Below, one piece after another: positions 3,810 to 56,000 of a DNA stretch of 64,000 nt. The stretch's first letter is position 1; each line of letters opens with the position of its first letter. A program made the translations under genes and the position numbers. Below the pieces are notes generated by a model, which saw only the letters and a list, made by a program, of their open reading frames with translations, did not search any database and was not told where the DNA came from. Source of the DNA: Amoebophrya sp. A120 (taxonomy: Eukaryota; Protista; Dinoflagellata); NCBI GenBank assembly GCA_905178155.1, contig CAJINV010000001.1, positions 2,842,089 to 2,906,088 of the forward strand. Direction: 5' to 3'.

Positions 3810-6800
3810 TTATTTCATGGTGTAGACCGTATTACGAAAGGGAAGGCGTAAAGCAAAAAAGAAACTCAAACAGTACTTTTTCTTCACGACATCTCCTAAC
3901 ACATTCGTGACATCCGCATCCGTGACGGGTTGTCCTCGATGCGCGGACTGCAACAGCAGTTTGATTTTCCGCCGCAAGGGCTCCAGTGTCACATCCTGCA
4001 TAGCCGCGTCAACTTTGGACCGGAGCTTGCGCTTGCGCTCGATAGCGGCTTTGATCAGCTCGTCCTCGGCTGTCGTCGTCTTCACGGCTCTGTCTAACCT
4101 TGCATCACCGGAAAACGCGCTCTCCCGCCGTTCCGTGATGGAGAGAGCAGACTCCTTTGAAGGACCCCGGGTAAAAACGTCCTCTGCGACCGGCAATGGC
4201 CTCGGCAAATCGTCCTCCTCGTGATAGACGCTTTTCTCTCTCGCAAACTCCTTGCTCCGCCTGGTGTGCCGGTCTTTCGCGCGTTTCTGCCGTTCCTCCT
4301 GCTCGCGTAATGCCTCGAGTTTCCGCTGCGCGTGGTAGGCCATCATGATTCTGTCCGACGCCATATCGCGGTGCTTTTGCAGGGCGATTCTGCTTTCTAT
4401 GAGTTGCTTCTCTGCCACGAGCTCGATTTGTTCCTCCACCGCGGCTTCGAACAAGTCTTTCGCGGTAAAAACTGCTTCGGCTTCTTTATGCAGCGCGATC
4501 CGCGCTTCCTCCTCATCTTGTCGCTTCTGCGCGATTATCAAATGCAAAAGTGTCTGGGTCTGGAAGATTGTGACACTTGTCATGCACGCTTTGCGTGAGC
4601 TATGATGTCTGTGATGCATACCCTAGCAATACAGATTTTTTCAGGGCTTCTTGATGCGTATTCCGCATGACAGATGCCTTCTCAGCGTAGCAAAAATTGC
4701 ATTCCCCTTGGTACTCATGCAATACAGATTTTTTTGGAATCCAAATGCAGCATCACAAGTTGCATTCTTCCAGACCCAGACATTTTTACATTTGATAGCG
4801 ATCGCCAGCGCTTCCTGCCGGCTCATCTTCCCCCGGGCGTTTTATCGTATTCAAAAATGTCCCCACACCATAGTTGTAATGCAAGTCTGCATGCTGAAAA
4901 GGTTTCTAATGCGGAGCCCCATGAGAAGCATTTTCTAGTCGTGTTGTGGAATTTGTCATGCTCCAAGCAGCATGGTATACTAGATCTGTGATGCTACTGA
5001 ACTACATCAAACAGCACTACACTACGAATCCAAATTTGTCATGCGAAACAGCCAAAACTTGTGGATTTGTCTAGCCGATTCCCCATCTTGACTATGGTGT
5101 GGGGACGTTTTTACTCAGGATACGTTTTTCTGAATCGCGATCGCCGCGGCCCGGCGATCGGCCTCCTTTTTCGCGAGCCGCGCTTGCCTTTCCACCTCGA
5201 TTTCTGCTTCTTTCCTTTCCCGCTGGATTCGCGCTTCGTTCTCCTCGATGACTATTTTTTCCGTGGATTTTCGGAACGCGTTGGCGATCGCGAGGGACAG
5301 GAGTTTCACGTTCTCTTTCGATTCGTTCAGAATCTTGTCCCGCGTCTCCTGTTCCTTCCTGCGCTTTTCCCGTGCCTCCTCCTCCGCGATCCTCTCCGCC
5401 TCCTCCCGAGCTTCGCGCTCGATGCGTTCTCGCTCGATCCTCTCCTCCTCCGCCTGCGCGGCCTCGAGTTTGGGGAGCCACTCGACTGCGCCCTGCACGA
5501 TGGAGATCAACGCGTTTCTCAGTTTCAGCTTCCGGATGCACCGGACAATGGTGATACCCGCCTCTCGTTCCGCGTTTTGTTGCTCCAACGCTTCTTCCTT
5601 CGCCTTCAACCTTCTGACCGTCAACATCCAATCCGTCGCACCGAGGAAGAACTGCCGGAGAGTCTCCCGCAGTTTCCTGCCGCGCCACCATTTCTGGACG
5701 AACAAAACCGCTTTTGTTTCCGCTGCAAACTTGATCGCAAAGGCCTCTTCTTGTCTCTGTTTTTCCAGCGCGCGCAGGACGAGTTCCCGCATGTTTAGCC
5801 GTAGCCTCGTCCGACGGTACCACTTCTGCAATTTCGTCGCTTTCTCCCGTTCCAGCTTCCTTTTCGCCCGTTCTCGTGCAATCTGCTCCGCCTTCTCCTC
5901 TTTCGCCTTTTGGTTGCCGACCCGGAATTTCATCGGAATAGCACCGGACGCTGATTTCTTCACCGCAAACCGGACCTGCCTCGCCTTCCACTGCCTCTGC
6001 AATTTTCGTGCCATGTCGTCCTGTTTCTGCCGCCACGCACGCTGGGCGTCGACGGCCTTCTGCGTCATGACGGTGTGCGCGAATTTCTTCTTGCCGAAAA
6101 CCGAACTCCGGATGGTTTTCTTCAGTTTCCTGGCCCGCCAAGATTTCTGGATACTCTTTGCCGCTTTGTTTTCCAACTTGTCCCGCGCTACCCGCTCGTC
6201 GTGCGCAATGTTCGCGGCAACCAGCCAGGACATGAAGACTGCGCCGGAGACGATTTTTCGCGTCTGGCTGTTCCTGTGTGCCTTCTGCAATTTCACCGCC
6301 GAGGTATGCTCGAGCCGGATCCTCTCTTTTCTCTCTTCCTCCATCTGCAAAATTTGCAGCTCCTTCAAATACGTGCCGCCTTTGGTGAACACTTCCTTCA
6401 ACTTCGTCCGCATCTGGATCTTTCGCCACGATTTCTGCAGTTTGTTCGCGCCCTCTTCTCGCGCTGCGTCCATCGCAGCTTTCAATTCCGCTGCCTTCTT
6501 TTCAGCTTCCGCCTTCGCTTCCTTCCGTCGTTCCGCCCGAACTCGTTTCGCCAAATTCGCACCCTTCTTGCTCAATCTCCGGAGCGCCCTGCGGATCTTG
6601 TTTGCCTTCCAGCTTTTCTGTAATTTCACTGCCGCATCCGCTTCAAACTGGTGTCGGACGAGTTCCTTCGCGTTGATCTCTTTGTTCACTAACTGCTGCA
6701 AAATCCTTATTGTCCGTCTCGCGCGGAACCAATTTTGGATTTTTTTCGCCGTTTCCTTCCAGTGCTGCTTTGCGACGAGTTTCTTGATGTCAATCTCGCC

Positions 6801-9800
6801 GTGGATCGCCATGCTCACGTATCCGCGCAGTTTCTGTGCACGGAACTTGTTCTGCAACTTCCCCGCGTACTCGTGCCGCAATTCCTCCGCGCGCTTCTCA
6901 TTCGCGATGTCGTCCAGCCGCTGTTGCTCCAGTAGTTTTGATAGGTCGACCGCCCCAGAAACGACGCTGCGGAGCAAAGTCCTGGTTCGCCGTCTCCGAA
7001 TCGCGCGTTGCACTTTCACCGCGGCAATGGTCATCTTTTTCCTCTCCTCCTCCTCGGCCTCTTGTTTCAGCTGCTTCAGCCAGTCTCCGGCGGATTCGAA
7101 TACTTGTCGCAGTCTTTCCCGGGAACGCATCTTCCTTACTGCGAGCTGTAATTTGTTGACCGCTGCAACCTTTTCTTCTTTCTCTTTGGCCATCAGGATC
7201 GCTGCCCGCGCATCCGCCTCGGCTTTTGCTTCTTTCCTTCTCTCCGCCCGCACTCTTTTAACCAGCGCGCGACCGTCGATTACCGCCGCGACCAGGGCTT
7301 TTCGTATTTTCCCAACCTTCCAGCGGTGCTCCAACAGCCGTACCGCGTCGACGCGCCGTTGGTGACGGACTAACTCTTTGATGTTGACCTCCTTCCTATC
7401 CTGAGTAAAAACGTACCCACACCAGAGTCAGGATGGGGATTTTGCAACACAAGCCTAGGAGTTTTGTGAGTCACGCATGACAAGTTGCACTCTGCAGTGT
7501 AGTGCAGGTTAGCAAGTGCAGCCGCGTCACAGATTCATCTGCTCATCCTGTTCACAGCATCACAAATTCCAAAACACGATTGGAAATGGCTCTCATGGGG
7601 ATGCGCATTACAAGTCTTCCTGTCTTTGCAAATCTGCATTACAACTCTGGTGTGGGGACGTTTTTACTCAGGATACTTTCGGATCGCGATGCGGATAATG
7701 TACCGAGTTCGGGACGCACGAAAGCTAAACTGGATTTTCCGGGCCATCTTGTCCTGCAGTTTCGCGCGTTCCCGCTGCGCCTCGGTTTCGTACTGGTGCT
7801 CGACGAGCTGCTGCAGATCGACAACGCCCCAAATCGCCTGACGAAGGAGTTTCCGCATCTTCTGACTGCGAAACTGCCTTTGCAGCATCGTCGCGTACTT
7901 CAGTTGTTTCTCTGCTAACTCCCGTTTTTCATCTTCGATCCTTTGCTTCTCCAATATCTTCGACAAATCGACCGCACCGGACACGATTTTCCGCATCATT
8001 TCGCGAAATTTGTTGTGCCGGTAGCGCCGTTGTACCTTGATGCAGGCCTGTTTCAAAATGTAGTTGTTCACCACGTCTTTTAACGGGATTTTCTTTTTCG
8101 TCCACCAGGGCCGGCACGCCGCTTTGATGTGTCGGACAAAGACCCTGCAGCGCCACGACCGCTGGACTTTCTGCACCGCTTCTAGCCTTCTTTGCTCGTA
8201 CACTTTTTCCCGCAAGTCGAACTCGCCGTACATTGCCTGCAGTAACTTCTTCCGCAGCTTCGCCGTGTTCCACATTGCCTGCACTTTCCGGACTTTTGCC
8301 TCTTCGAGTCTCGCCCGCTCTTCGGCCATTTGAATCCGGACTTTCACGAGAATCCCCTTCAGCGCCTCGCGCCACTTCGCCGCGCGGTAGGACCGGACTA
8401 GCCTTCTCGCCATTCGCTGCCGCTTCATGATGTCGAGGAAGACGTAGACTTCCCGTCGGAATCTCGCCGCGCGCACCGCTCTGATGAATTTTCTGGCCGC
8501 ATATCCTATGTAAAAACGTCCCCACCCCAGAGTTCTTGTCATGCAAATCTGCACGGTAAAAATGCTTCTCATGCGGAGCCCCATGACAGGCATTTTTTAG
8601 TTCAGTTTGGCAATTTGTCATGCTCCAATCGGCATGATGTGCTACATCTGTGATGCTGCTTAACTAGCTAAACAGGATTGCACTACGGGGCCAGATTTGT
8701 CATGCAGAACTCCCAAAACTTTGGGATTTGTGTTGCAGACTTCTCATCTTCACTATGGTGTGGGGATGTTTTTACACAGGATACCGCGCGCTTTTTCCTT
8801 AATTCCAACATCATTTTTTCGATCGCGCGTCGGAACTTGATCGCCTTGTAGGAGAACCCGATCTTGTTGCACGCCCGTCTGCACTTCGCTTCGTGCGCTT
8901 TCCTGATCCGCTCCGCCTTTTGCCTCCGCGCCTCCAAGTGCATCGCGTCAATCAGCCAGCGCCACTTCACGATCCGCGTCCAAGAATGCCACATCTTCTG
9001 GATCCGGCAGGCCGCGACCCGTCGTTGTTCTAGTCTGGCCAGCCGCTCCTCCTCGGCGATCCTGCGCTTTATCAACCGGTTGAAATCCACCGCGCCATCG
9101 ACGACCTTCTTGAAAAGCCACCGCATGTGCCGGGTTTTCCACCACTTTTGGATCAAGGTGGAGGCTTGCTTTTCCAGCGCGTCCCTCTCCTCTTTGTCTT
9201 CTTTCGCCCGCTGCTTGTGAAGTTCCTCCTCAATGTCGAGCGCGCCCCAAAGGGCTTGCATCAACTTCGCGCGCATCTTCCTGCCGCGGAAGCGTCGCTG
9301 CACCTTGATCGCCATTGCCGTCTCGTGGTGGAAAATGTCAACTTCTCTTTGCTCTTTCACCAATTTCCGTAATTTAATTTCCCCCGCTACTACTTTTCTC
9401 ATCAATCGATGCATGTTCCTCACCCGAAGTTTTCTTTGAATCACCCTGGCCGCTCGTTCCCTTCGGTCGGCGATGATCTGTTGCTGCAATGCCGTCGGCC
9501 AGTCTTTCATGCCGGAAACGTAATTCCCTAATCTCGATCGAAAGACCCAAATTCGCAATAAGCGCTTCAGCTTCGCCGTGGCGCGCTGCCTTTTCGTTCC
9601 GTACAGCTGTTGCTTCAGCCACTCTTCTTCACCCGGATTTTCGAACTCCAACGCGGACTGGTCCGGCCACGCGATTTTCCGCCCGTCCGGGAGACGCAAA
9701 CAGTCGAACTGCGGCTTCCACGTTTCCCGTGCTCGGACGCTGCTGTAGATCTCCAAGCTGGCGACGAGGTCCTCCATTTGCGCGCCGTTCACGTCTTTTA

Positions 9801-16773: not shown

Positions 16774-17118
16774 ATTTGGAGATCAAAACAAGAACTACTG
16801 CTTGCCGACGACTTCCTGTTGCACCACTGGCCTCCTCCGCGAACAGAAACACGCTTGGCCTCTTCAAGTTGTTGAATGTTTGCTTCGGATTGAAGCTGCT
16901 TGAGGATGCCGATGCTGTTTGAGTCGCGATGGATCTCTCCGACCGCACAAAGTTCGTCGTTGTACTTGTGCCGGCGGTTGCTTGCTGCGAATGATTCGTC
17001 GTTGGGCGAGAGTCAATCTTCTTTGCGCCGATATTTGCTGGCCTCTGCGGCTGCGTATCGGAAGAATCAGAATGCCTGGCGAGACGAGCTACCGACGCAA
17101 TGGGATCGTTATTGGTGG
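16774..17118 (-). pseudogene. Chimeric duplicated gene fragments
   Basis: 16813-17118 is a near-identical copy of 11467-11775 (inside the 781-aa ORF). It is fused to 16774-16811, an exact 38-bp copy of 17795-17832 (3' end of the Sfi1-like gene). Confidence 0.75.
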
Positions 17119-20700: not shown

Positions 20701-23700
20701 GTCGCGCTTCAGGTTCGCGACAATCTCGGTTTTGGTCTGTTCCTTCCAGTTGGTGAAGAAAAGGAGAAGATCGGTGGTTCTGCCGGCTTTATCCTCCGCC
20801 GGCACGAAGAACTTCAGCAACTTGGCCGCGTGCGCCGCTTCGCTCGCCTTCTTCGAATCCGAAGACTGCTGGAGCTGAAGCTTGTGCGCGGCGGTTAATT
20901 TTCCGATGACCGTTTCCCGAGACCAGGTGTGAAACAGGGTAGAGAGTAAATACGCGTCACTGCGTTCCTCCGCGGAAAGCTTCTCATACGTCGAGACGTG
21001 CATCCTCGCGAGGGCGGCCAGTCGGTCCTTTAACAGACTCTGCTGCTTTCGCTGGAGTAGAGCAGTGTTCCATCCCTTGAAGAGTTTCAGCATTTTTTGC
21101 TTCGGATTGTTGTCGGAAAACAAAGTCGAGGTGCCGGTCAGCTTCTGCAACTTTTCGAACGCAGTAGATTGCTTTTCCAAAGCCACTATTCGCTTTTTCT
21201 CCGCGAGAAGGTTGGACCACAGGCGGAAACAGAACTCCAGCATGGCTTTTGCATGGGACGCCGCCATTGCGGACGCGGCCGCGGTCATTGCATTTCCCTT
21301 AGACCTTTTCACCATTTCCGCGGCACGCTCGCAACGGTTCAGCAGCGTTTCGCGCGCCCAGATGCGGATGACGGAGTGCTGCAAAGTGGTGGAATGGTTT
21401 TCAATTTGCGCCTCCGCCTTGACAACTGCTGCCTTCCGCAGAACGGTTTGCTTGGTCACTTGTTGCCGCCACTCGCGCAAGACCACTCCGCACCAACTCC
21501 GTTGCTGCCGGACGACCAGCACCTGGCCGAACATGTGCCGCACGTGGTTGCACAACTGATCCATGGTCGTGGTCGGTTTTTTCTCGACGATTCTCGACGT
21601 TTGGAGCTGTTTCGGAAACGCTGGATGAACAGGTGCTGCGTTTTCAACGGTACGTGTCTGCTGATTGTGTTTGCTTTGTTCAAAGTGCTTTTTCGTGTTC
21701 CACTGCTGTTGCTGCTGGATATTAACCACCGGCGAACCGTCGGCGAGCAGTGTCGGAAACCGATCCATGGATGCTGCGAGGCTCTTGCGTGTCTGTTCGT
21801 TTAACGAATTCATCGGCGTTGTGTAGACAAGACTTTGCGACGAAGCAAGACTCGGATCTTCCACCAGACCATTTTCTCCAGCCGCAGCCTTGATTTCCGA
21901 CAGACGGGAGGGACTCGCCAGACTTTGACTGCTATTCGAAGCTGTAGTGGCGGCTCCCCAGTTGCTCGCTGCGGTGGTCGTGGCAAAGGAGGTTTCCTGC
22001 AGTTGTTCTGGGTCTGCGCCTCCACCAACCGCGAGCGCCCCTTTCGCGATCGCAAAAGCGGCCTTCTGGAAGTGCTTTTCCAATTCCTTATCGGCCTTCC
22101 GCTGGTACAGCTGGTTTTCCATATCAAGTGCAAAAATGTTTGGGTCTGGATGATTGCAACTTGTCATGCTAAATCTGCATGAGGCAAAAAACTGTGTTGC
22201 ATGATTGCCAAAAGTTGCGCGCTTTTGATCTAGTCGAGAGGCAGTTTCTCGTGCAGGATAGGCATTAGAAAGGTCTCACAGAGTCTGTCATGCTATGTCC
22301 TACATGCCAGACCGAGACCTCATGGGTCATGGAAAACCTGCATGACAAATCTGGCAACCTTCGAGACCCAGACATTTTTGCAATCCATATTCCACACTGC
22401 AGTGCCAATTGGTGAACACGCGGGACAGCACCCGCCTGCTGGAGCGCAAAGCGCAGAGGTTTGCGACACGGGACCGGCCCGCCAAATCCCTCCGCATCCG
22501 CTTCTCCTCGTTGACGTCCAATTTCCAGGCGAGGAAGCACAAACGCTGGAGAACTATCCTGAGTAAAAACGTCCCCACCCCATAGTCAAGTTGGGAAATC
22601 TGCAACGCAAATCTTCAAGGTTTGGGAGTTGTGCATGACAAGTCTCCATCTGCAGCGCAGTGCTGGTTAGCAAGGGAAGCCGCATGAGAAAGCCACTTTC
22701 TCATCCTGTTTACAGCATTACAGATTCCAAAACACGACTGTAAATGCCTCTCACGGAGATGCGCATTACAAATGTTCCTGTAATCGCAAATCTGCATCAC
22801 AACTATGGGGTGCGTACGTTTTTACTCAGGATAAGAACGTCTAATTGCTCATGTCTGCGGTTGCGGAGTTGCTTGCTGCTGCACTTCTCCAGCATCGGGT
22901 CCAGGATAGTGGAACGGTAGGTGGCGGAAGTCTGCAACTTCTGCTCTAAAGACGTAACTCGCCAGGCGAGAAACAGGTGGATCGCAGTGGCGGTCGCTGC
23001 ATTTTTCGCTGAAGATATTTGTCTTCCCTCGTCGTTTTGAAGGTCTTGCAGTTGCTTTTTGCAGACGAAGTCGACAGCGGTGAGTCGAGCGGTTTTTGCG
23101 GAAAGTTTGACTCTATCAAATGCAAAAATGTCTGGGTCTGGGAGAATCCGAGATTTGTCATGCAGTTTTTTCAAGCTCCCCCACGTCTGGAATTATGCAG
23201 GGCCTAGCATGTGCATGACAGGTTCTGCAGCTCCTTGATGATGCGTATTCTGCATGAGAAATGCCCTGTCAGCATGGCCGGAAGTGGGCACTTTTTGCAC
23301 GTCTGCATCACAGATCTTTGTAGGATCCGAAACACGCATCACAAGTTGCAACCTTCCAGACCCAGACATTTTTGCATTTGATAGACTCGCTGCAGATTTT
23401 TCCACTCATCGAAGCAATGTTGTCGCAGAAGTGCAGAGTTCAACCTTTTAACTTTCTCCACTTGCTGGAAGTGCGCTTTGCGGTTGGTATTTACGCTCTG
23501 CACGTGACTCTTCCAATTTGCGAAAATGTGATGAAGTTCGGTTTTGCCGAAGTGGTGCTCGAGGATGGCAACACGGTTCATCTTTTGCTGCACGACGCCC
23601 GCCTGGAAAGCACAATTCTCTATTTTTTGCTGATCCGAGGTTGTTTGCATGCGCCAAAGTTGGAATGTACTTGCGAGGAAGAGTTCATTATTCGATCTTG

Positions 23701-26907: not shown

Positions 26908-27408
26908 TTCTTTATGCGCGTTTTTGTCGTCGCTCTCGCTCCGAGGACTCTCAAACAGGCACGCACTGCTTGTGACGAAAGTAGTTTAGCAAATCTCCAA
27001 ACACAGGCTTCTCTGGCGTTTGTCTGAAAAAGCACGAGAAACTGACGCTAGACTGGTCGTTGTATGCTTCTTTTACTTTTTCCACAAATGTCGCATGGAT
27101 GGCTTTGTTCATTTGGCACGACATCAATATTGTCTTTTGAGAATGTTCCAACAGCAGCACTATGTAGTCGGTGTCTCTCTAGACGTAGTACACCGCTCGA
27201 TTTCCACTAGCAAAACATCATTTTACATTTGTTCCGATGCATTTCGAAGATTTCAAGTTTCAAAATAGCTAAAAAGAAGATACGAAGATTCCGCGTATGA
27301 AAGAAGATTCTCTAGAAGTACTGGCTAAAAGCACTTTTTCTGTTCCTGTGATTTCATCTTTGCTAAACTAACTAAACTGAGACTGAATGTGATAATTTGC
27401 TAAAAGAT

Positions 27409-32600: not shown

Positions 32601-33350
32601 GAATTCAATACGGAGAAAGTGGCCGTTGCCGTCCTCGCCATCTGATGACGATGATTCTCTTCTCTGGTTAACTGGCTCCGCAGCGGCTGGCTCCTCCTCT
32701 TCTTCGTGTTCTGGTGGTGGGGCCTCGCCACTCGCTGCTACTGGCGCGGCCTGGTTATTTTGCAAGACACAACATGATTATTTCGAGAACGAGGAGGGAA
32801 TCAATGGAATGGCTGTCCTTCCATACCTCCAAGCGCTTCGTCGACGCAGAAAAAGACATGCCGACTCACCCACTCGAGTGCGAGTCAGAGAGTAAGAAGT
32901 AGAATTCACGACATGTACCTCATCCGGTTCTGCCGTAGCACCAGCTTCTACTGTGACCGCCGGTTCCTCTGCTGCTGCTGTCGCACTGTCAGCTTCTTCT
33001 ATTATCTGCGGAATCGGCTCTGTAGTTGGCTCCTCCGCGGCCACTGCAGTTGTACTATCCCCTGCAGCATCTTCTGCTGGTGCTGGTGGTGAGTCAGGAT
33101 CTCTTGCTGGCGCTTCCGCGGCCTCTGGATCCGCCGGAGCGGGCTCTGTTGTTTCCGCGGCCGGTTCAACAGTAGCCGGCGCTTCCGTTTCTGCTGCCGG
33201 CTCTTCTTCTGCAGGAGCCGCTTCAGGAGCGACTGCGACGTCAGCAGCGGGCTCGACTGCGGCATCAACATCAGCAGTGGAGGCTTCTGGTACTGGAGTA
33301 GTCTCTTCCGCAGGGGCTTCTGCGGCCGGTGTTTCCTCTTCTTCAGCCAT
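29655..33350 (-). CDS. Coiled-coil protein with acidic Ala/Glu/Pro-rich N-terminus; about 6 GT-AG introns and 4 introners
   Basis: ATG at 33350 (MAEEEETP). GT-AG introns include 32478-32611, 31814-31973, 30549-30649 and 29967-30161. Introner joins AASVGID, PAFDLEKL, VRDVWKD and DLELEKK. Confidence 0.75.
30248..30425. mobile_element. Introner, TIR family C (178 bp)
   Basis: TATCACACAGAAAAAAGCTGGCAGG ... CCTGCCAGCTTTTTTCTGTGGGATA, with the inverted repeat extending inward (TTTGTAATGCAAAAATAA); repeat TTCCA. Confidence 0.9.
30973..31233. mobile_element. Introner, family A (261 bp)
   Basis: TATGAATTGCAAATGTGTCTGGGTCTG ... CAGACCCAGACATTTTTGCATTTGATA; repeat TCCCA/TCCCT. Confidence 0.87.
31281..31604. 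mobile_element. Introner, TIR family D (324 bp)
   Basis: TATCGTATGGAAAAATCCCCCTTCCC ... GGGGAGGGGGATTTTTCATTTTGATA; repeat TCAAA; homologous to 54001-54335. Confidence 0.88.
32124..32392. mobile_element. Introner, family A (269 bp)
   Basis: TATCAAATGCAAAAGTGTCTGGCTCTGGAAG ... CTTCCAGACCCAGACATATTTGCATTTGATA; repeat ACGGA. Confidence 0.9.
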
Positions 33351-36900: not shown

Positions 36901-39900
36901 CTCGCCGACGTTGCAGCGCTCGCCCCCAGTGGGATTTCATCCGGACTGTCAGCAGGGGCACGATCACGAACGGCGCCAGGCTGGACACGACGTCCGAATT
37001 GCGAAGAACGCGCCCGAAATCGTCCCCCGCTTGCTTCCCCGGAACTGCCAACAGTCGCGGCCGCGCAAAAAAAACTGACAAAAACAGTCGCGCCCGCACA
37101 AAAAATTCTCATGTGAGAAAACATTTCTTCTTCATTACAAAACACAACAGATAAGGATATTTTTCCACGTAGAAAAAATTAAAATAATAATAGAAAATAA
37201 GCACGACAGCCCTGTCAAGAATTTTCAAGTCGTCCTGGAAATTTAGGAAGGCATGTGCAAGAAACCAATTGTGTGCTCGCTTCTTCAGGCGAGCGAGTTA
37301 CTGTCTAACGTACTATCTATATTCCTGCTTGTAAGTAGCTGACAGCCAGTGTCTCAACCGGTTGTCACCAAGATCTGGAGAAACACCGCCCGTTTTAGTG
37401 GTGAACCAACAGACCTGGGGAGTTGCCTGAGAGAAAGTGAGCCGAGACCCGCAATCACCCCTGGCTTCAGAACCAGGCACTACTACCGCCTCCGTAGTGC
37501 TTCGATCAGCCTCCGCATAGCCACAGGGTCCAAAACAAGCCGCCTCTGCTTGCCCTTCCCTGCGTCAGAACAGGTGCTATAGAAATGACAGGTCCTAAGC
37601 AAGACTCCTCTTCTTGCCCTTCCTGCCTGCGCCACCTGAGCCGAGGCTCTGGTAGCGGTACGCTGACGCCGCCGGGAGACGCAGGAAAACACGGAGTTAT
37701 ACCCTGCACCGCCCAACTACCTCCCTAAAACCCTTTACCCTACCCTTAAACCAAAGATGTTGAAAGAAAATATTTACTTCGATTTTTTGATGTTTCGCTT
37801 GAAAGCGTCAGCACTTCAAGCACATTTTAAGACATATATTTGCTAGTGTAGTATGTGCCCTAAGACCGAAATATTTCTTTTCAGCTAGTACAAAAGAAAA
37901 TGAAAGCGTAAGCTAAGTTGTATTGAAATTGAAAATCCTTCAGAATGTTTAAAGATAAAGTGGTATCAATAATAAGTAAAGGATCAAGCGAAGTACTGAT
38001 GACGATGATGCTTTCGGGCCCGGCTCGGCACTAGTCCCTCTTCCGCGTCCGAAGCGCAGCAGTGAAATTCTATTTTGCCTGTGAGAAAATTGATTATGTG
38101 CATGCTATCGTCCGGGTCATCCATGATATTTTTAAGTAACTCTTTTTCGTAGTTCTTCATGTTTTTTTTCTTTAACTACAAATCTCGCACGGTGGATTTC
38201 GACGCGTTTGGTGGAGCGGTGATGTCCGAAGCACTAACGCGCTCGAGCTAAAACTGCGAGAAAGTTCGGTAACGACATCAGATCGTGTTGCTATTTGTAA
38301 AGAAAAAATAGCATTTTATCTCTTCTTCGTGCTTAGCTGGTGCAGCTGAAGCTTTTCAAGAGAGAGAGAGAGAGAGATCAAGTTTTTCTCCAACGACAGT
38401 ATACTTTTTGTAGTCAACGACCTCGACATGCTAGTCTGGTATGACTCTGAGATCTGTATCGCGTTGCCGCGAAGAGCTTCTCCTGCCTGTCATGCAAAAA
38501 CAGAGTTTCTCATCATGCGGGTTACGCAACTCCGAACAACGGAAAAACTTTAACTTGTCAAACATGCTTGGCAGCGCATTACAGGGCACTCACTATTCGT
38601 ATTCCCCTCCTTCCATCACAAGTTTCCAGACCCAGACAGGTTTACAGTGCATAGCTCACTTCCGCGGCGACCGGAGCGCTGATCGGGTGCTCGATGAAAT
38701 GCTCAAGCCTGGTGATTATCAACCGTAAAAATGTCTGGGTCTGGAAGAATGCATGTTTGTCATGCTTGTCTGGCATGACTATTAAATCTGTCATGCATGT
38801 TGCCCAAGAGCCGCATTTTTCTGTCATGCGGAGACGCAATTTGTCATGCAGAATAGGCAACACCTACAAGCTCAGAAACTTCTCATGGTGAGCCAGCACT
38901 TGTGGCCTCCTCATGCTACGCCACTCAGCATCACAAGTTTCCAGACCCAGACATTTTTACAGTTGATAGTGATCTCGTCGGAAGATTGCTTGTCCACGTC
39001 TGCCTTGTACTGGATACTTAGCACTACTTTCCCCGACTGAAAGCTGTCCGTAATCGCACTGCCGTCCGCTTTTTTCACGACCGAAAACGCCTCGTGGCGG
39101 ACGCAGCCGAAGGAACGACGGGCAATCACCATCTCCATCACATCCAGTATCCGGTGCGCCATACGGTGCTTCGTGCGGAATAAACCGCCCGTGACGACCC
39201 AAACCTGAGGATTCATCGAGATTGATTTTAACTTTTGATGCTCAACAAATAAAACCATTTCTGTTCTTTCATCAAAAAAACTTTTCAAAAATTTTGCAGC
39301 ACATGCAGCAGTGGGCAAACTAACTGTACTGCGTCTGATATCATTTTCGATGTTTCATAATTTCCAGTACCTCTATCACGATGCTTCTGTATCCCTGCAA
39401 TATCCTGACGTCAAGCGGCTTTTCAATGACCCCGTTTTTGCTGTCCGGCGTCCAGTAGTCCTTGCCCCCAGCGATGATTTTCACGCTATACACCCCCTTG
39501 TCCTCCGGGTGGGGGTTCAGCATCTTCAAACTGTGCACGTTGATCACCAAATCAATCGCCTGAAACTTGTCCCAGCCAATGGAGAAGAGGAAGTTCTTGA
39601 TTGCCGGGAACCTCCGCCAGTTCAGGTGGCACAGACAGCAAAGGAAGCAGAAAAACAGGAAGGACAGGACGAAGAGGTGAGCAATGTTCAACGGACCCAC
39701 GATCGGTCGGGTCACCCCGCAGAGGTCCCAACTTGGTGACGGGTGGTGGTTGGTTCCGAAGTGGACGGGGTGCGTTTCACCGTGAGCGGCGGCGGCTGCA
39801 GCCTCTTCCAGGTGTTCTTCTGTGCCGGGAGGCACCGGCATCACGTGCAAGTGAAGGTGGGAATGGGAAAAAGCGTTTTCGAATTTATTTCGGGTTTGTT

Positions 39901-42059: not shown

Positions 42060-44978
42060 TCATCGTGATCCCTGCCGCTGCCTGCCCATGCGGCTTGCGT
42101 ACCCCGGCCTGGTATTTCCCGCAACTCGCTGTGCCGCCTGATTGGTCCCAGCAGAATCCTTCGATGTTGAAGCACTGGTTGTCGGTTCGTCCTGCTCGAA
42201 AACTCCCGCTGAAGTTTCTCGATAGTCCTGGTCTTTTTCCGACCAGTGTACCAGGGTTCGCACCAGCGCCTTTCTGCTGTCACTCCTTGTTTCGATGCGC
42301 TCCGACGGGGTGATGTCCAGCAGCTTGCTTCTCGCAGATCCGACGCGCTCTTTCTGCTCTTCTTCGCTTTTGCGCACTTGCTTCAGCAACTGCCAGCACA
42401 GGTAGGTCGCGACCAAGGCCATGATGGAGGTGGTGAAGAACCAGTCAAGGAACGTGTACCTGAAATATGCGATTATTGCTGAGAGAGTGTGCGGCCATAC
42501 TGTGCCCTCTCTAAGTAGAACGATGTACAGTTTTATTTTTCCTCTTGTTTCGAAAGCCTGAACTGCGCATCAATTTCAATTCACGTACACGTAGTAGTTT
42601 TCATCTTCAATTGTATACCTTCGGTTATGTGCCACGAGCCCCAAGTAGTCGCCGAAAAAGACCCCGACGAGCACGAGCACGGGCGCCACGGGGATGCGCC
42701 AGGCCGCCTTGATTGTGGAGCCGGCGTACTTCAGGATTCGGCCGACAAACAGCCCGTGACAGGCGGAGATGATGAAAGCCGCCGTGGCGTGGCCGTCGAT
42801 AAAGGGGTTGACAGATTCAGTTCCGCCCCCCGTCGACGCGGCCGAGGTGGAAATGCGGACCAGGAGCAGAATGAAGCTGCACCACATGTACAGCATCCCA
42901 TTCTGAACATCAACATCGTTCAGAAAGTTCTTCACTTCCCGCTCCGTGTTCGCAACGGAGTCCGCACGCAGGCACGACTCGTCCAAAGGCGCGACGTTTT
43001 CTACAACTGTTGCGTCTCCCGAAGTGGTTCTTTCCTCGTCGCTTGTGGTCGTCGTCCCTGCCACGGTCGGCCCGGTGCTGCTCGATGGCTCCACGTCGGT
43101 TGCGGCCGTCTGTCCTTGTTCCCCGAGAATTTGTTGCTGGGCCCCAACATCCACGACCGTCCAGACCGGCACGCGCATCATGTATTCCATGGAAACGCAA
43201 CCCCCGATGTTGGCGAAGATGCACAGTACTGCGAGTATACCAGGCATGTACTCCGTCGTCCCCGACGTGGTCGCAGGATTCGGCACTGCACCCGGGTCCT
43301 CCGTTGTTCCACCGTATTCCGCGACGCCCTGAAGAATGCAGAAAAAGGTGAGCAAAAACACCAAGGATTGCGACGGCCAATCTTCCAAGGAATGGTCGTT
43401 TCCGAAGACGCGCGCGCGGAGGAAGACAGTGCCGACCAGTTGGCACTCGCGCAGGACCGCAAACGCTCCCACCCTGGACGTGCCCAACACCATCTGCGTG
43501 ACGACGTTCCCGACACAGAAGAGCGCCGCCGGGAGGGAGAAGCGCAGGAAAGACTTCCACACCCAGCCGTGATGCAGTTGCTTCGTGTCGCTGCCACGTA
43601 AGCTTGGGCCGGAGACGGAAAACAATTCGAACACGGAGGTCAGACCGACAGAAGTGGTGTGGTTCGTCGCGCTCGCCGGCGCCCCGGTTCTTGTACTGCT
43701 TCCGTCACCTACTTCCTCTACCAATTTGCGACCCTGGTCCTGCTCGCTGTAGGTGGATTTCGCCGCAATAACCGCACAGCAGAAGAACAATTTCAACAAC
43801 TCTTGCTCCATATAAAACGTCACCGTGTTGAAGGTCATCTTGTGGTCATTTCCGCCGGCGATCATGGAAAACAAGATGTTGACACTGCAGGAAGTACAGA
43901 GCGAGATGCACCCGAACAGGTTCCCAAAGATGAACTGGCTCGCGGCGCTGCCCTGCGATCCGGAGCTGTCCGTGCTCGCCGTGTAGTACATCTGGAAGGC
44001 GAAGAAGGCAACCACGATGAGAACCAACGACATGGCAAAGAAAACGTCCATGGTGGAAACGTAGTGCCCGAGCGTGTCCATCTTCGTTCTCAGCATGCGT
44101 TGGTTCCTCTCCTGCAGCGAGGCCGGACCGTTCACAACCCACTCGTCGGCGGATACATCTAGAAGCGAGGCGGGTGATGAATTCGCAGGTCGTGCTGAAG
44201 CTGAGTCTTGTTCCTGTTGTCCAGGAGCCCCAGCTGCGTTTTTGTTCGCAGCGAAATCCAGTGCACTGGAGAACTCCAAAAAGTTCCAGTGCGGCACAGA
44301 CGTCGCGGTCGATCGCATGGTGCTGGTCCAAATGTTGTGCAGGTCGCGCAGCGAGTTCTGGAAAATTGCCGAAAGTCCCATCGGGGAAGAGGAGGGCTCG
44401 TATGGAAAGGGAAAGGCACGAAGTTTGCTTTCTGTGTCTTTTATTTTTGCCCCGTCGACGACGACGACACTGTTGCTGTTGCCCGATGTCGCAGAAATAG
44501 TGCTACGTCCGCTGCCCGTGATGTGCTGCTGCTGCTGCTGCTGTCCGAGCCCTTGCAACGCCCAAGTTCTACTTTGATGCACATTTTGTTTCTTGGAATA
44601 ATGTGCTGCTCCGGTGTTAGCAGAAGATGAAGACGTCGGCAATTCTTCGGCTAGTTTATCTTGATGAAGTAGAAGTTCATTTTGAGGAAGCTTGTCGCTC
44701 TCGTTTTCTTGCGGAGATCTCGCCTCTCCGCGCAAGAGTTGACGGGCTTCTTCGTCCCGCACAGAATCGGCTTGTAGTTGCACAATCGTTTTTCTGTTCT
44801 GGGACTTTTGTTGCTCTGTGGCAGCACTGACGATTCCGAAAGAACTGCATGGGGAGAGCAGTGAGATGAAACCGGCCAGGGCGACTTTTCCCATCGGGAG
44901 AAACCCCCGGGAGGTGGGACGGCGCTGGCGGTTGCCAATTTGTTTACTTTCCAAATCAGGAAGGCGAGGCATTACCAT
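42060..44978 (-). CDS. Nucleotide-sugar transporter-like protein (SLC35A/DMT) with long N-terminal extension
   Basis: SLC35A-like motifs EQELLKL, LPAALFCVGN, VSMEYMMR, VQNGMLY and GLFVGRILKYAGSTIK. A GT-AG intron at about 42460-42618 joins the last TM exon (RYTFLDWFFTTSIMALV). Confidence 0.7.
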
Positions 44979-46045: not shown

Positions 46046-48767
46046 CTAGGACCCATACGGCAGCATCTTCATCATTCTCTGCCCAATCGCGGACTGCCGG
46101 AAGTGCGTCAAGTCCATCTGGGACATGACGTAGCTCAAGTCGTCAAATTTCGAGAACACCTCCGGCACGTCTTTCACCAAAAACACCTTTTTGCTATTGT
46201 CGATATCGCCCCCGACTAATCGGTACAGTTGCAAATCCCCCTCGTTCAACGCCAGCTGTGAACAGTTTTGGTGCGCGCCCACGTCAGCGACGATGTCCAT
46301 GTCGAAGAACTTGTACGTGCGGCCCACCGGAACGGAGCACATCTTGTCGCAGCAGCCCCGGGCTTCCTTCTGCTATCCTGTGTAAAAACGTCCCCACGCC
46401 AGAGCTGTAATGCAAATGCGCAATAACAGGAACGTTTATAATGCGCAGCTCCATGAGAAGCATTTCCAAACGTGTTTTGAAATTTGTAATGCTGTAAACA
46501 GGATGAGAAAGTCGCTTACTCATGCGGCTTCCCGCCTTGCTAACCAGCACTACACTGCAGAGGCAAACCTGTCATGCGCAACTCCCAAAACTTGGAGATT
46601 TGTCTAGCAGATTTCCCATCTTGACTATGGGGTGGGGACGTTTTTGCTCACGATATCTGCGCCTTCTTCGCGATCTGCCGGTCCTGCATCTTGCGGATGC
46701 GGGCCGCGGCGTATTACTGTGAAAAATGCCCCCACCCCAAAAGTTGCAATAATTTGCGATGCGAAGTTTCCAAATGAAAACTTTTTGTCATGCATGAAAG
46801 GAATATGAATCCTTGTGATGCAAAGTCTAGGCGTATATAGCATTGCTTGCATGACAAGCGCCGCTCTTGCTGGGATCTGTTGCAATACAAATCTTCGCTA
46901 TTCACGATTGGAAATCTGTGATGCTGCTAGATGCAAGAGGGCGAGTGTTTCTGTTAGAAAAGTTTGCAATACAAATCCTCCCAAGTTCGGGGGTGGGGGC
47001 GTTTTTTATTGTGATACGGCGTCACCGGCGCAACAGCACATGTCTTCCATCGACGCGCGACAGCAGAAGAAGCAGCTGTAGAAGGGAAAGCAGGCGAGGT
47101 GCGCCGGGTCGTCGCAGAGGTACCAAAAGTCCCACTCCGTGTACAGGACGCGTTCCGAGGTGATCTTGTACTGCGGCTTGGCGCAACAATGCGCGTTGAA
47201 CAGGTAACCACAGCAGGTTATCACACAGAAAAAAACTGGCAGGTCGTATTTGTAATGCAAAAATAAATAGACAAAAAAATTTGTATTGCATATCCTAAAT
47301 AGCATGCTACGAGGCCGCCCATGACAGATTTTTCTGCGTATTTATTTTTGCATTACAAATATGCCCTGCCAGCTTTTTTCTGTGGGATACAGGTGCGCTT
47401 CGTCGTCTCACTGTCGTAGTACACCGCTTCTTTGTGCTTGTCCACAGTCTTCGTCGCAGGGCCATCCATGCCGGCCGGCCAGGTCCAGGTTACCTGGTGA
47501 GGTTTCGATAGAAGGATTGAAATTCGAGGAGAGGCTGAGGCGTTCTTTCGTCCTCAGTTGTAAAATTCAAGTAGTCTTCTTTGTGGTATCTTGATCTTTG
47601 ACTTTGAAATACGAACAAACCCAGAGACTGCAACATGAAAAACCCTGCTCTTACCGCCCCCATCAGCCTGCCCAAGCCCATCGCGGCCAAGCCCTTCAAG
47701 TTCATGCGCGACAAGCGGAACGTCATTTGCTGAAACACGGTGGCCACGTCCGGGACGTCGTTCAGAATGAAGGTGCTGCTCGAGTCGGACAGGTCGCCTC
47801 CCGCGAGCTTGTGCAGCACCATGTCGCCTTCCCCGCGGCAGATCTGGCACAGGTTTTGGTGTGCGCTTATGTCCACGATCAGGTCGGCATTAAACTGGTC
47901 CAGCTGCCTGCCGGAAACGCAGTTGCACTTCCCGTAGCAGCACCGGGTCCACTCCCACCGAGAGTAGACGTACCGGACATCGGTGACTTTGTTCCAGCCC
48001 GGGCAAGACATGCAGTAGTGGATTTTACCTGATTTTTATTCAACATTGATTCCTGTGCAGACTTTCTTTACTCTGGACTTGGCCTAAGGCAATGGAGGAG
48101 TACACAAAGCATTTTCCTTCTGGCGCGCTCGTGCTCTTCCATCAACACTTAAGCTGCAGTTCGGTTTTTTACAAATGCGCAAATCAATGCAAATTCAAAT
48201 TCTACCTTATCGAGAAGAAGATAATAAAGAGTTCTTTTTGTTCTTACCAGCAACCGATCGATGCGATGTGGCGCTGTTGTAGAAGACCGTTTCGTTTTTC
48301 ACGACGGAAAACGCTTGCATGTCGTCTGTGGTTCCCTGCTTTGGGGCCATGAGGTGCTGCCCTTCTTTGAGGATCGACTCAACCGCGTTCGGGTGCTGTG
48401 CGAGTTTCTGAGCGAAAGAGGATAACTCGAGTTTAATATTCCTGTCCTCTGCCACGACCATGTCGTTCTGCACTGGCGCTTGCAGTTTTGGGCCGAAATA
48501 ATCCTCGTCTGCTGAAGAACTGGAGGGGCTCGACCCCGTGAACAAACTCTCGAGTGCGTAGCAGGGCGAGCTGGGATCCACCGGCAAGTCGTTGATCAGA
48601 ACCCCCGGTCTGGACAAGAGTAACCAGTCGAGCAGACTACCACTTTTTGCTTGATTAAAGTCGTCTTCCGGGTCGATATCCTCTACTGGGAGCCGCCGCG
48701 ACCGGTCCGGCGGAGGGTACCGCGGGGCACCGGGCGGGATCCGGAAAGGTCCACCTCCCGGGGCCAT
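46046..48767 (-). CDS. Cys-rich protein with two tandem bacterial-PH (bPH_2)-like domains; 2 GT-AG introns and 3 introners
   Basis: Two homologous halves (VTDVRYVY...IVDISAHQNLCQICRGEGDM / ITSERVLY...IVADVGAHQNCSQLALNEGDL). Joins TKRTCCGY, GDAAARIR and KAQKEARG. Confidence 0.65.
46374..46655. mobile_element. Introner, family B (282 bp)
   Basis: TATCCTGTGTAAAAACGTCCCCAC ... GTGGGGACGTTTTTGCTCACGATA; repeat TCTGC. Confidence 0.9.
46712..47016. mobile_element. Introner, B-related family (305 bp)
   Basis: TATTACTGTGAAAAATGCCCCCACCCC ... GGGGTGGGGGCGTTTTTTATTGTGATA; repeat CGGCG. Confidence 0.85.
47219..47389. mobile_element. Introner, family C (171 bp)
   Basis: TATCACACAGAAAAAAACTGGCAGG ... 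CCTGCCAGCTTTTTTCTGTGGGATA; repeat CAGGT; homologous to 30248-30425. Confidence 0.92.
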
Positions 48768-53000: not shown

Positions 53001-56000
53001 ACGGGTCAGCTGGAGTTGCTGCGCAACTGCGGCAGCGACTCCAGTTGTATTTGCTGCTTGATGAACTGCCCCAGCAGCTCCTGCTGCTGTCGAATTAGGT
53101 TGTACAGCCGACGCCCCAGAAGATGTTGCACTGGAGCTGCTAGCTGTACCTCCAGCGGCGGCCGGTGCAGATCTCTGGCGCTGGAACAAGTCGAGTTGCA
53201 AAGCTGCAGACATCATTTCCTCATCGCCCTTCAACGTTAATTCTTCGCCGGGATAGAATTGTTCGTCCGCTTGTTCTAGTTCGGCAGTGTCCATTGCTTT
53301 CCGGAGCAAGGTTTTCAGTTCCGCGGACGAATCCGCGGAGAACAAAATCTCCGTTTCCACGGTTTGAATCGCAGTGGTCGGATCTTCCCCCTGTGGAATC
53401 ACCGCGCCAAGGCGCACGAAAATGGGCAGCGGTGCCCAGAAGTCCTCCGGGTGGTCGTTCAGCACCTGAAACCAGCGGTTCCGGCTGGAGGGCGTCATCG
53501 CGGGCATGTGAGTATGGATTGTAAAAAAGTCTGGGTCTGGAAGATTCTGATACTTGTCATGCACGTTTTGCATGAGCCATGATGTCGGTGATGCATGCCC
53601 TAGCATCACAGATTTTTTGAGGGCTTCTTGATGCCTATTCCGCATGACAAATGCCCTCTCCGCGTAGCACAAATTGCGTTCTCTTTGCTGCTCATGCAAT
53701 ACAGATTTTTTTGGAATCCAAGTTCAGCATCACAAGTTTCATTCTACTTCCAGACCCAGACATTTTTGCATTTGATAGTGAGATTCCGGACGCAAATCGT
53801 CTTCGGAAACGTCGTATCCTGTGCAAAAGTATCGTAGTCGCACTAATGGAAAATATGCATGACAAATCTCCTTCCTAGGGTAAAACAGCATTACAAATTC
53901 CACTTTTTAAATTGCCAAAATTTGTGATGCAATTCGTACTAGTACGATACTTTTGCAATGCATACATCGAGCTCCTTGGGGATGAAGTGCTTGCGGCTTA
54001 TATCGTAAAGAAAAATCGTAATCGCCCCTCCCCATATCGAAAGGGCACGCCTCAGAGAATTTGTGATGCTGATTTGTGACCACAAATCGCGCCTGTCTTG
54101 CAAGAAAGCAACGGCATATGCTCCGCCCCTTTATGCAGGCGGTTTGTAATGCTGTTGGGCGCTACAGCATAGACATCCCTCATGCTACTTGCCTAGGCCA
54201 AAACGACCTCTCTACATTGGCATGATAGTATGGGCCTGCAGTCCTCCACTGCAAAACAGAGCTGATTTGTGTACACAAATCCAGCAACAGAAATTTCCGG
54301 TTCGATATGGGGAGGGGGGATTTTTCATTTTGATAGCTTAAGCCCTCGCTGACCTTGTGCATCAACTGGCAACGCCCCACCGGAGTTTTGCGGTTCAAAA
54401 TGTCCACTGCTTTTGCCAGGTAGTCCCGGCAGGTCGGCAGCAAATCGCAACGATCCTGCGTGTCGAGGAGCAAATTGTTTGCTCCGGTGACATCTTCGGC
54501 TTGATCCGCTTGACTTTCACCTCCTGCTTGCCCCATTGTAGAACTCAACTCGATTTCGTGCAAAGGACCAGCTGTTCTTGTTCCGCCCCCTCTTGCACGC
54601 AACATGTCAACGTCTGCCTGCGAGGAAGACGTTGCAAGCCCGCTGTTTGGGTCATTGTTGCTTCTGCGCGACGCCAGAAAACCGTCGCTCTTGTCCCGAC
54701 GATTCCTCAACGGAGAATGGAATCGCCAACCTTGCGCTCGTGGCCCCTCGCCATGCGGGCCGTTGTGGGAAATCCTATATTGGGTACGAAGAGGTATGAT
54801 CTTCTTTTATTGATTCTAGTCATGAGAAGTGCGAACACGTCTTGTCTCATCAACGCAAAAGATGCTTGCAAAAGAAAGAGTCATTCCAGCGAAACGGAAA
54901 GTGTAAATGAATACGCTGATGCATTGTTCGAGTTAACGAACAAGTTCGACGCCGCGCTGCCACTCGTCGCCCCGGCGGAGTGGTGCTGAGACTTGAATTT
55001 GTGGGCGGCTTTTTGCGTCGGCTGTCCGTCGATTTGCAACAACGAGTCGGAGAGTTTTCTCTTCAGCTCCGCTTTTTCAACTTCAGACAAAACCGATTCG
55101 GAGCTGCTGTTCAAATGGGCGGACCCGACATGGCTCTCCAACGCGAACTGCAACAATTGCAACCCGACTTCCGCCGCGGCGCTGGCATTCACCTCTTCCA
55201 GGGCAATTTGCTGGGGGGAACTCGTACCATCAGCGGTACTAGCGCCAGCAGGTGGCGCCACCGATACACGGGACGAGGTAGGAAAATCTTTATTCTGCAA
55301 ATTTTCCGTGGAGGCAATGTTGAAGTGCTGCGGGGGCGGCTCAGTCGACGTCAAGGCCCCTTGTTCTGGCCCCGCACCACATTGGTCCACCGAAGCTGCA
55401 AGCTGCAGTCCCGACCGCGGCGGGGTACTTGCCGTGTAACGTCGACCACGAATCGTTTCTTGCGTGATGATGTTATTGCGACCTCCACTTCCAGTGCTGG
55501 CCTCCCGTGGCGCCGATGCGCCCGCAGGTGGCGCAGGGCCGCCATTCGGCAGCTCGTTGGCGGGGCGGGTCCACAACGACGCTTTCGCTTTGACGCTTGC
55601 GGAGCTCCAATCTTGCTGTGGCGGGGACTGCGAAGAACTTTGTCCAGCTTGCGTCGATGACGTAGCACCTCCTCCACTACTTCCAAGTACAGTAGAACTA
55701 GACGCCTCGAGGTTGTGCAGCCCGGATCCAGAAGACGTGTTCGGGGTTAAAGTGTTTCCGGTGTTCGTGCGACTCACCGTAGGACCCTCCTCGGAAGTTG
55801 TAGCTCCGGCGGCGGAGGAATTTTGATGCAGCATTTTCACCATGCTGTTGACAGCGTCCGCCAAGACCTCGGCAGGCAAGTTCTGAAAGTCAACATCTTG
55901 TTCCAGGTCGGGCGGAATTCCCTGCGTAGTTGTGTCCTCGGCGGTGCGGAACGAGGACTCCAACGAGCGAATCGGTGACAACGCACGTCCCTCCTGGGCG

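What the first reader, a model, noticed from the sequence alone, without database searches (positions are those of the whole stretch)
4536..54335. One excision rule for 20 exon-interrupting elements: 5-bp direct repeat + TAT...ATA inverted ends, never GT-AG
Seen: 20 insertions from at least 5 TIR families (150-335 bp, plus one of 4.1 kb). Each starts TAT, ends ATA and is flanked by an apparently random 5-mer (GCGAT, CGTTT, TTCCA, AGAAC, GACTC, TCAAA, ACGGA, GCTCA, GTGAT, TCTGC, CGGCG, CAGGT, GTTGA, GTGAG, GCTTA...). Removing the element plus one repeat restores the frame in all 20 and rebuilds motifs (an IQ motif; HGG to GDSAG of the esterase). Many removed lengths are not multiples of 3. No register gives GT-AG, GC-AG or AT-AC. 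Known: non-canonical introners with inverted and direct repeats are reported from Amoebophrya, and to my knowledge their removal mechanism is unresolved. Inference: these are MITE-like transposons removed by a dedicated non-spliceosomal system. It could act on RNA (hairpin cleavage and ligation) or on DNA (precise excision, like TA-bounded or pointer-bounded ciliate IESs).
Basis: partly seen in the sequence, partly recalled or inferred. Interest (0 to 1): 0.9.

Follow-up and report, generated by a model that had tools for sequence, protein, structure and literature searches.

The report
Hairpin transposon introns of Amoebophrya
Twenty small transposon-like inserts interrupt genes of a marine parasitic dinoflagellate and, where checked, are missing from the RNA together with exactly five flanking bases; they are an already published kind of intron, likely cut out by a still unidentified machinery that would recognise their hairpin shape instead of the usual splice signals.

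Summary
Observation confirmed: 20 elements start TAT and end ATA; 16 have a perfect and 4 a 4-of-5 direct repeat; none has a GT-AG, GC-AG or AT-AC register; removing element+5 restores frames. They are the published Amoebophrya A120 introner elements (Farhat 2021: TAT start, 5-bp repeat, RNA-seq validated); two proteins named A120 match the window. Removal is on RNA: an RNA assembly lacks one element plus exactly 5 nt, a contig length fits three more, and DNA contigs keep them. In 127 metagenome loci 334 of 440 elements have perfect 5-mers; they insert in both orientations, nearly only in coding DNA, clustered 20-80 nt apart. The 4.1-kb copy is a 250-bp-family element carrying an orphan ORF, not a shown transposase. 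The machinery stays unknown. Closest is SOS splicing (2025), which is imprecise; no paper linking the two turned up. A weak excess of synonymous repeat mismatches (25 of 42) hints at a floating junction; a G-U strand test was negative. The scan noted related AT-ending hairpin introns on other DNA, not these. Known elements, sharper and testable rule.

The parts
4536..4797 (.). element, 262-bp family A, perfect 5-bp repeat
4843..5122 (.). element, 280-bp family B, perfect repeat
7397..7675 (.). element, family B, 4-of-5 repeat, synonymous mismatch
8502..8783 (.). element, family B, 4-of-5 repeat, synonymous mismatch
22122..22389 (.). element, family A, perfect repeat
22555..22833 (.). element, family B, perfect repeat
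23114..23383 (.). element, family A, perfect repeat, 20 of 20 paired end bases
30248..30425 (.). element, 171-178-bp family, perfect repeat; public gene model P0005 joins across it
30973..31233 (.). element, family A, 4-of-5 repeat, non-synonymous mismatch (R or W); gene model P0005 has R, the upstream copy
31281..31604 (.). element, 320-bp family, perfect repeat; joined in P0005
32124..32392 (.). element, family A, perfect repeat; joined in P0005
34554..38653 (.). 4.1-kb element: 25-31 bp of a family-A-type left end, about 3.85 kb of other DNA, then 227 bp homologous (78%) to a 250-bp element; perfect repeat; host frame reopens after +5 removal; no RNA evidence of its removal
34686..37178 (-). 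830-codon open frame (P0001) inside the 4.1-kb element; 66-72% identical to two other A120 proteins; no family, no fold
38717..38968 (.). element, family A (252 bp), perfect repeat
46374..46655 (.). element, family B; removal of element+5 fits the length of RNA contig 12
46712..47016 (.). element, 305-bp family; removal fits RNA contig 12
47219..47389 (.). element, 171-bp family; removal fits RNA contig 12
51570..51719 (.). element, 150-bp family, splits the esterase domain; RNA contig 13 skips 51565-51719 with no added letters
53513..53777 (.). element, family A; joined in gene model P0004
53815..53964 (.). element, 150-bp family, 4-of-5 repeat, synonymous mismatch; joined in P0004
54001..54335 (.). 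element, 320-bp family (335 bp); joined in P0004
50095..55843 (-). host gene, alpha/beta-hydrolase (esterase-like), 1,562 aa, four elements
29655..33350 (-). host gene, 586 aa (P0005), four elements plus ordinary introns
42460..42618 (-). ordinary GT-AG intron skipped by the RNA run and kept by the DNA run: internal control

Best explanation
These are the introner elements of Amoebophrya: short transposon-like inserts with paired ends and a 5-base repeat that stay in the DNA, are missing from the RNA together with five bases where checked, and are likely removed by a hairpin-recognising cut-and-join system that would not use GT-AG signals. Step 1 (inferred): an unidentified transposase acting in trans, by the TA...TA ends and 5-bp duplication most likely of the integrase-like IS3/IS481/Ginger group, inserts the element and duplicates 5 bp. 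Step 2 (predicted by folding): the ends pair over 25-35 nt in the pre-mRNA whichever way the element points. Step 4 (inferred): cutting near the foot of the stem and ligation, as in SOS splicing, made exact by the duplicated 5-mer; the cut may float within the repeat. Identity with the published family about 0.95; RNA-level removal about 0.88; the number given is for the spliceosome-independent mechanism.
For: Published motif and repeat match; proteins named A120 match 100% and 99%. RNA run X3: contig 13 joins 51564 to 51720 with no added letter; contig 12 has 722 nt between two laid pieces, exactly the exons left after three elements+5 and two GT-AG introns. DNA run X1 crosses six element-flank junctions of four elements unbroken (five by 26-37 nt, one by 3 nt). 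P0004 equals the window minus four elements+5 over 1,252 aa with no gap or mismatch. In metagenome loci: TAT at both ends in 285 of 316 elements found without any motif demand; lengths+5 spread 136/108/127 over the three phases; frames read separately on each side ask for +5 (mod 3) in 61 of 67 perfect-repeat and 14 of 17 one-mismatch cases; a GT-AG register exists in 11 of 250; 79 against 92 in the two orientations, so no one-way signal is needed. A hairpin-triggered, RTCB-dependent system exists in animals (PMC12779559).
Against: No excision enzyme, RTCB, AKAP17A or CAAP1 gene was tested (no genome held). G-U wobble pairs are not favoured on the transcribed strand (237 against 256 A-C; stem energy -40.4 against -40.7, p=0.25), so the stems show no RNA-strand signature. 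SOS splicing is imprecise and leaves indels, unlike these joints. The organism has 83 of 89 spliceosomal proteins and U2, U4, U5, U6, and a review reads the case as spliceosome adaptation. All RNA evidence is assembled sequence, presumably from cDNA, and hairpins with direct repeats are the classic substrate of reverse-transcriptase skipping (own knowledge). X1 and X3 are labelled '?' and 'RNA?'; their kind is inferred from kept or skipped GT-AG introns; contigs drop rare variants. 106 of 440 metagenome elements have imperfect repeats, 27 with two or more mismatches.
Confidence: 0.45

Rival explanations
1. A changed spliceosome without U1 removes them: the hairpin brings the ends together in place of U1 and U2AF, and U5 aligns the exons within the repeat.
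For: U1 not found, other snRNAs and 83 of 89 proteins present (PMC7789003); exact joints as in spliceosomal splicing; tunicate non-canonical introns are spliceosomal (review passage).
Against: No shared end dinucleotides in any register; equal use of both orientations leaves little room for a one-way branch signal; ordinary GT-AG introns with ordinary ends persist in the same genes.
Confidence: 0.33
2. The elements are cut out of DNA in some life stage (IES-like precise excision), and the RNA comes from the emptied alleles.
For: TAT and AAA are held at both ends ten bases apart, as a DNA-binding protein would read them; no RNA-strand bias in the stems; one life stage or sample of DNA only was laid.
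Against: DNA contigs run across the element edges without the break an abundant empty allele would cause; the published genome and a separate metagenome assembly both hold them at 8-27% of sequence; no transposase reported in A120.
Confidence: 0.08
3. The joints are reverse-transcriptase skips across hairpins flanked by direct repeats, and the native RNA is handled otherwise or the genes are dead.
For: The anatomy is that of known template-switch artefacts (own knowledge); only assembled contigs were seen.
Against: Retention breaks the frame in 20 of 20, yet frames of 1,000-2,000 codons stay open around them, a domain is collinear across one, repeat mismatches lean synonymous, and over 60% of the organism's introns are non-canonical.
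Confidence: 0.04
4. The 4.1-kb element is the autonomous parent and P0001 is its transposase or excision factor.
For: Long intact frame between element ends; at least two more diverged copies in A120 proteins.
Against: No Pfam, PHROG, PDB or Atlas match; model pLDDT 27; the candidate E-x-x-H and C-x-x-H residues vary among copies; another long family-A copy (L040:476-2934) carries an unrelated 415-aa frame, and five shorter copies carry 200-430 bp inserts, the pattern of cargo.
Confidence: 0.1

Closest known systems
Introner elements (IEs) of Amoebophrya sp. A120, Farhat et al. 2021 (PMC7789003; seen: abstract, sections 10, 11, 12, 16, 32, supplement legends; figures not seen)
   Same: Ends start TAT, seven looser bases, at least three A; direct repeats of 3-5 nt, 5 bp in the Fig. 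S19 legend; hairpin; RNA-seq supported; about 240 nt mean; MITE-like; mechanism open. Proteins named A120 match the window.
   Different: Nothing in kind. The paper leaves the borders 'variable/unknown' and limits introns to 1,000 bp; here the net rule is element+5, with orientation, phase, spacing and mismatch counts and a 4.1-kb member.
SOS splicing, Zhao et al. 2025 (PMC12779559; seen: abstract, Main parts 1-2 of 4, Discussion, passages)
   Same: DNA transposons removed from mRNA, kept in DNA; triggered by pairing of inverted ends; interior dispensable; rarely GU-AG.
   Different: SOS is imprecise, leaves indels, and works with scrambled ends; here joints seen are exact, TAT is held, and tens of thousands of loci depend on it. 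Its factors were not tested here.
Nonconventional introns of Euglena (PMC12501133, abstract only; PMC11282704, passages)
   Same: Majority non-GT-AG introns, paired ends, a paired triplet at a set distance from the cut, repeats at the joints, unknown machinery.
   Different: Triplet is CAG/CTG with spacers 3 and 5-6 and a purine at the exon start; unrelated lineage.
Integrase-like DNA transposons: Ginger2/TDD, IS3EU/GingerRoot, IS481EU (PMC2836005, PMC10045372; passages)
   Same: TA..TA ends in IS3EU/GingerRoot, TNT..AYA in IS481EU, 5-bp duplication in TDD-4/5; Gozashti 2025 (PMC12130899, passages and 2 of 33 parts of table file 8) notes an A120 family with TIRs and Copia/Gypsy homology.
   Different: IS3EU duplicates mostly 6 bp, Ginger ends are TGT; no transposase found here.
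Ciliate internal eliminated sequences (recalled, no call)
   Same: Interrupt coding DNA, bounded by short repeats, one repeat left behind.
   Different: IESs leave the DNA; these stay in the DNA run laid.

Membership tests
Amoebophrya A120 introner elements | Inverted ends TAT + 7 nt + AAA | tested here: met
   40 of 40 ends in the window; 233 of 285 TAT/TAT elements in metagenome loci, other families differ at 11-13
Amoebophrya A120 introner elements | Direct repeat of 3-5 nt at the borders | tested here: met
   5 bp, perfect in 16 of 20, 4 of 5 in 4
Amoebophrya A120 introner elements | Repeated families | tested here: met
   six families in the window, 70-89% alike within a family
Amoebophrya A120 introner elements | Absent from RNA at non-canonical borders | tested here: met
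Amoebophrya A120 introner elements | Host is this organism | tested here: met
   P0004 100% and P0005 99%, named Amoebophrya sp. A120 by their source
MITE (non-autonomous TIR transposon) | TIRs, fixed-length target duplication, no coding capacity, many copies | tested here: met
MITE (non-autonomous TIR transposon) | Cognate autonomous element with transposase | tested here: inconclusive
   none in the window or 127 loci; P0001 unassigned; genome not held
MITE (non-autonomous TIR transposon) | Empty orthologous site in a relative | tested here: inconclusive
   no locus overlapped the window's exons
U2/U12 spliceosomal introns | GT-AG, GC-AG or AT-AC ends | tested here: not met
   0 of 20; GT-AG 11, GC-AG 7, AT-AC 7 of 250 possible by register
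U2/U12 spliceosomal introns | Lariat and branch point | not testable with these tools
   needs raw RNA reads; the raw runs laid did not cover the genes
SOS splicing | Removal from RNA, not DNA, of paired-end elements | tested here: met
SOS splicing | Imprecise joints with indels | tested here: inconclusive
   consensus contigs and gene models are exact; minority joints cannot be seen in contigs
SOS splicing | Needs AKAP17A, CAAP1, RTCB | not testable with these tools
   no genome held; terms absent from the Farhat supplement text
Ciliate-type IES | Removed from somatic DNA | tested here: not met
   kept in DNA run X1; one sample only
Solo LTR / LTR element | Pairs of near-identical direct copies sharing an outer duplication | tested here: not met
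   0 of 421 same-locus pairs at 92% identity or more
Group I/II or other Rfam RNA | Covariance-model match | tested here: not met
   0 matches at gathering score

The most novel reading that the evidence does not exclude
Amoebophrya has turned an SOS-like, spliceosome-independent hairpin cut-and-ligate pathway into an exact, genome-wide second splicing system: it uses the transposon's own 5-bp target duplication to realign the exons, with a junction that floats within the repeat so that both copies are read as coding, and it removes elements up to 4 kb.
Probability: 0.25. Interest if true: 0.88.

Novelty: already known. Interest (0 to 1): 0.45.

Why it matters
The elements are in print, but how they leave the RNA is open. 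The exact element+5 rule, the indifference to orientation and the naturally mismatched repeats turn that question into simple tests on existing RNA reads. If the route is SOS-like yet exact, it would show a transposon-defence pathway grown into a main splicing system, explain how a genome tolerates tens of thousands of exonic insertions, and offer a scar-free way of cutting RNA.

Tried and rejected
No genome held; metagenome records not searchable further. No RNA holder is on record as RNA; raw RNA runs X10 and X11 laid only 81 and 1 reads, nearly all on element ends, so they say nothing on these genes. The joints of the 11 elements left of 34400 were not seen in RNA, so the register at 7397 and 8502 stays open. 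Joint table was filled by other copies from the DNA run. P0001 as MULE- or KDZ-type transposase (motifs recalled, by eye): not supported; a second Atlas look did not complete; the model was too poor for a fold search. G-U strand bias: none; positions 4-10 even lean to A-C (111 against 76). Mismatch position within the repeat 11/10/4/5/12: not tested formally, looks within chance. Fixed-offset cut without a repeat: only 4 usable cases, 2 fit +5. Solo-LTR reading rejected. Rfam blank. Roy et al. 2023 not held. Direct-RNA work on Amoebophrya: none among 15 listed of 1,557.
Full report
OBSERVATION. The 20 elements are real. A strict scan gave 16 with a perfect 5-bp repeat, against at most 2 for any other core triplet and 0 for repeat lengths 4 and 6-9; resampled windows gave 0 in 98 of 100 runs. 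Four more have a 4-of-5 repeat. Between different elements only 2 of 380 left-right pairs match fully. All host frames run on the minus strand. Removing element + 2, 5 or 8 nt opens long frames and other offsets do not; no register gives GT-AG, GC-AG or AT-AC; 15 of 20 removed lengths are off-phase and the other five hold stops in every frame. TAT and AAA (11-13) are invariant at 40 of 40 ends while positions 4-10 differ between the two ends at 30% of sites; all 19 short elements fold with the ends paired. BLAST with 382 elements marks exactly these 20 places in the window and no decayed copy elsewhere.

IDENTITY. Farhat et al. 2021 (PMC7789003; abstract, sections 10-12, 16, 32 and supplement legends seen, figures not) describe for Amoebophrya A120 ends of TAT, seven looser bases and three or more A, repeats of 3-5 nt, hairpins, RNA-seq support, 29,850 copies, no U1 and no transposase; the legend of Fig. 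S19 names 5-bp repeats. Two proteins named A120 by their source match the window: P0004 equals the window minus four elements+5 over 1,252 residues with no gap or mismatch; P0005 reads through four more and keeps the upstream copy at the one non-synonymous mismatch. These are gene models, not independent reads. Gozashti 2025 (passages; table file 8 parts 15-16 of 33; files 13-14 not searched) lists 58 A120 families, most of those seen as unclassified TIR elements with mixed repeat calls. So the finding is a known family; unseen supplement figures may already hold more of the rule.

RNA OR DNA. One lay covered 9 of the 20 elements. X1 has flat depth near 45 and keeps GT-AG introns, so it is read as DNA; its contigs cross six element edges of four elements unbroken (five by 26-37 nt, one by 3 nt), where an abundant empty allele would break them (inference; rare alleles are dropped). 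X3 skips the GT-AG intron 42460-42618, so it is read as RNA. Its contig 13 joins 51564 to 51720 with no added letter, 155 nt = element+5; its contig 12 leaves 722 nt between two laid pieces, the exact sum of exons after three elements+5 and two GT-AG introns. For the other five elements of the stretch, the 4.1-kb one included, the output shows no joint either way. X1 may be the source of the window and is no independent support.

A LARGER SET. One pattern scan gave 127 loci, 523 kb, from a metagenome assembly; none overlaps the window's exons. They were chosen by a family-A end, so family counts are biased. Without a repeat demand, 245 of 324 candidates have a perfect 5-mer, against 10, 1 and 0 for lengths 3, 4, 6 (many long ones are mis-paired ends); by homology 334 of 440 are perfect, 79 have one mismatch, 27 more. 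Without a motif demand 285 of 316 have TAT at both ends; AAA is family-specific (233 of 285). Lengths show no phase bias. Orientation is 79 against 92 (171 of 244 assigned). Only 5 of 310 have non-coding flanks on both sides against 316 of 1,172 random places; the classifier was trained on the window, called only 39 of 76 non-coding training places so, and the background may hold missed elements. Gene bias of introners is known (PMC9860276, passages). Neighbours cluster: 120 of 285 gaps are 20-79 nt against 41 expected, 5 under 20 nt against 15.

MISMATCHED REPEATS. Of 66 one-mismatch repeats, 42 had a confident frame; 25 are synonymous and none gives a stop. Neutral changes would give 29%; a fixed joint with one free copy 39-45% (my model, depending on protein constraint); p = 0.006-0.04, 0.02-0.10 for the metagenome rows alone, 0.12-0.25 at the strictest margin with 18 rows. 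The window's fourth mismatch, non-synonymous, fell out of the count because an ordinary intron lies near. This is a hint that both copies are read as coding, not a result. Against an RNA-level reading of the stems, G-U pairs are not favoured on the transcribed strand.

THE 4.1-KB COPY. It is a 250-bp-family element with about 3.85 kb of other DNA near its left end. The 830-codon frame inside has two A120 relatives at 66-72% and one unnamed fragment and nothing else; the model is unusable. A second long copy, L040:476-2934, holds an unrelated 415-aa frame at a like position. Cargo is the better reading; the transposase is unknown. TA..TA ends and a 5-bp duplication point to the integrase-like group (PMC2836005, PMC10045372, passages), an inference only.

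MECHANISM. Shown: kept in DNA, gone from assembled RNA with five bases, no canonical ends, either orientation. Inferred: recognition of the paired ends, then cut and join. SOS splicing (PMC12779559) is the nearest worked-out system but is imprecise; Euglena introns (PMC12501133 abstract; review passages) are the nearest natural parallel. I give 0.45 to a spliceosome-independent route, 0.33 to a changed spliceosome, 0.08 to DNA excision, 0.04 to artefact. A link between SOS splicing and these introners was not found: the SOS paper has no 'amoebophrya' or 'dinoflagellate' and none of 30 listed of 48 papers holds both 'SOS splicing' and 'introner'; searches showed no later mechanistic study; subscription papers such as Roy 2023 are not held. 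PMC12005148 (passages) says these elements are confined to part of the genus.

VERDICT. Real, already known as a family, with a sharper rule and cheap tests for an open mechanism. Interest 0.45.

Noticed in passing
window 4797-4843, 31233-31281, 38653-38717, 46655-46712, 53777-53815, 53964-54001; loci L001-L127: Elements sit in tight clusters, 31-58 nt of exon apart in 6 of 19 window gaps and 20-79 nt in 120 of 285 locus gaps; element lengths peak near 150, 210, 260 and 320 bp. Insertion beside an existing element, perhaps in linker DNA, or a minimum exon size.
   Followed up: partly
L040:476-2934: 2.46-kb family-A element with perfect repeat carrying a 415-aa frame of no Pfam or PHROG family, inserted about 22 nt from one end, like the 4.1-kb copy.
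   Followed up: partly
window 37330-37510: Inside the 4.1-kb element, a short stretch has many other copies in DNA and depth about 320 in the RNA run; by eye it resembles window 3140-3200, though BLAST did not report that. Possibly another repeat family.
   Followed up: no
loci, e.g. L001:2455-2779, L024:6804-7065, L067:7848-8112: About 15 elements keep a perfect repeat but have one end changed from TAT (CAT, TAC, TGT, TAA): natural tests of whether TAT is needed for removal.
   Followed up: no
loci, e.g. L001:1574, L015:963, L034:758: Further families with TAT ends but TCA, ACA or similar at 11-13 in place of AAA.
   Followed up: partly
window 13800-14780: Array of 77-89-bp and 36-bp-based imperfect repeats, beside a telomere-like C/A-rich run near 15360; a similar run lies near 37725.
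   Followed up: no
window 11467-11775 and 16813-17118: Duplicated 300-bp coding fragment, 90-95% alike; 17775-17832 repeats its flank; 27100-27460 resembles 28910-29210 by eye.
   Followed up: no
window 1-64000: All genes inspected lie on the minus strand, in line with the one-way gene clusters reported for this genus.
   Followed up: no
window 53747-53777, run X10: About 76 raw RNA reads carry a family-A end joined to another locus's sequence, i.e. an element retained in RNA (or DNA carry-over) in a run that does not cover this window's genes.
   Followed up: no
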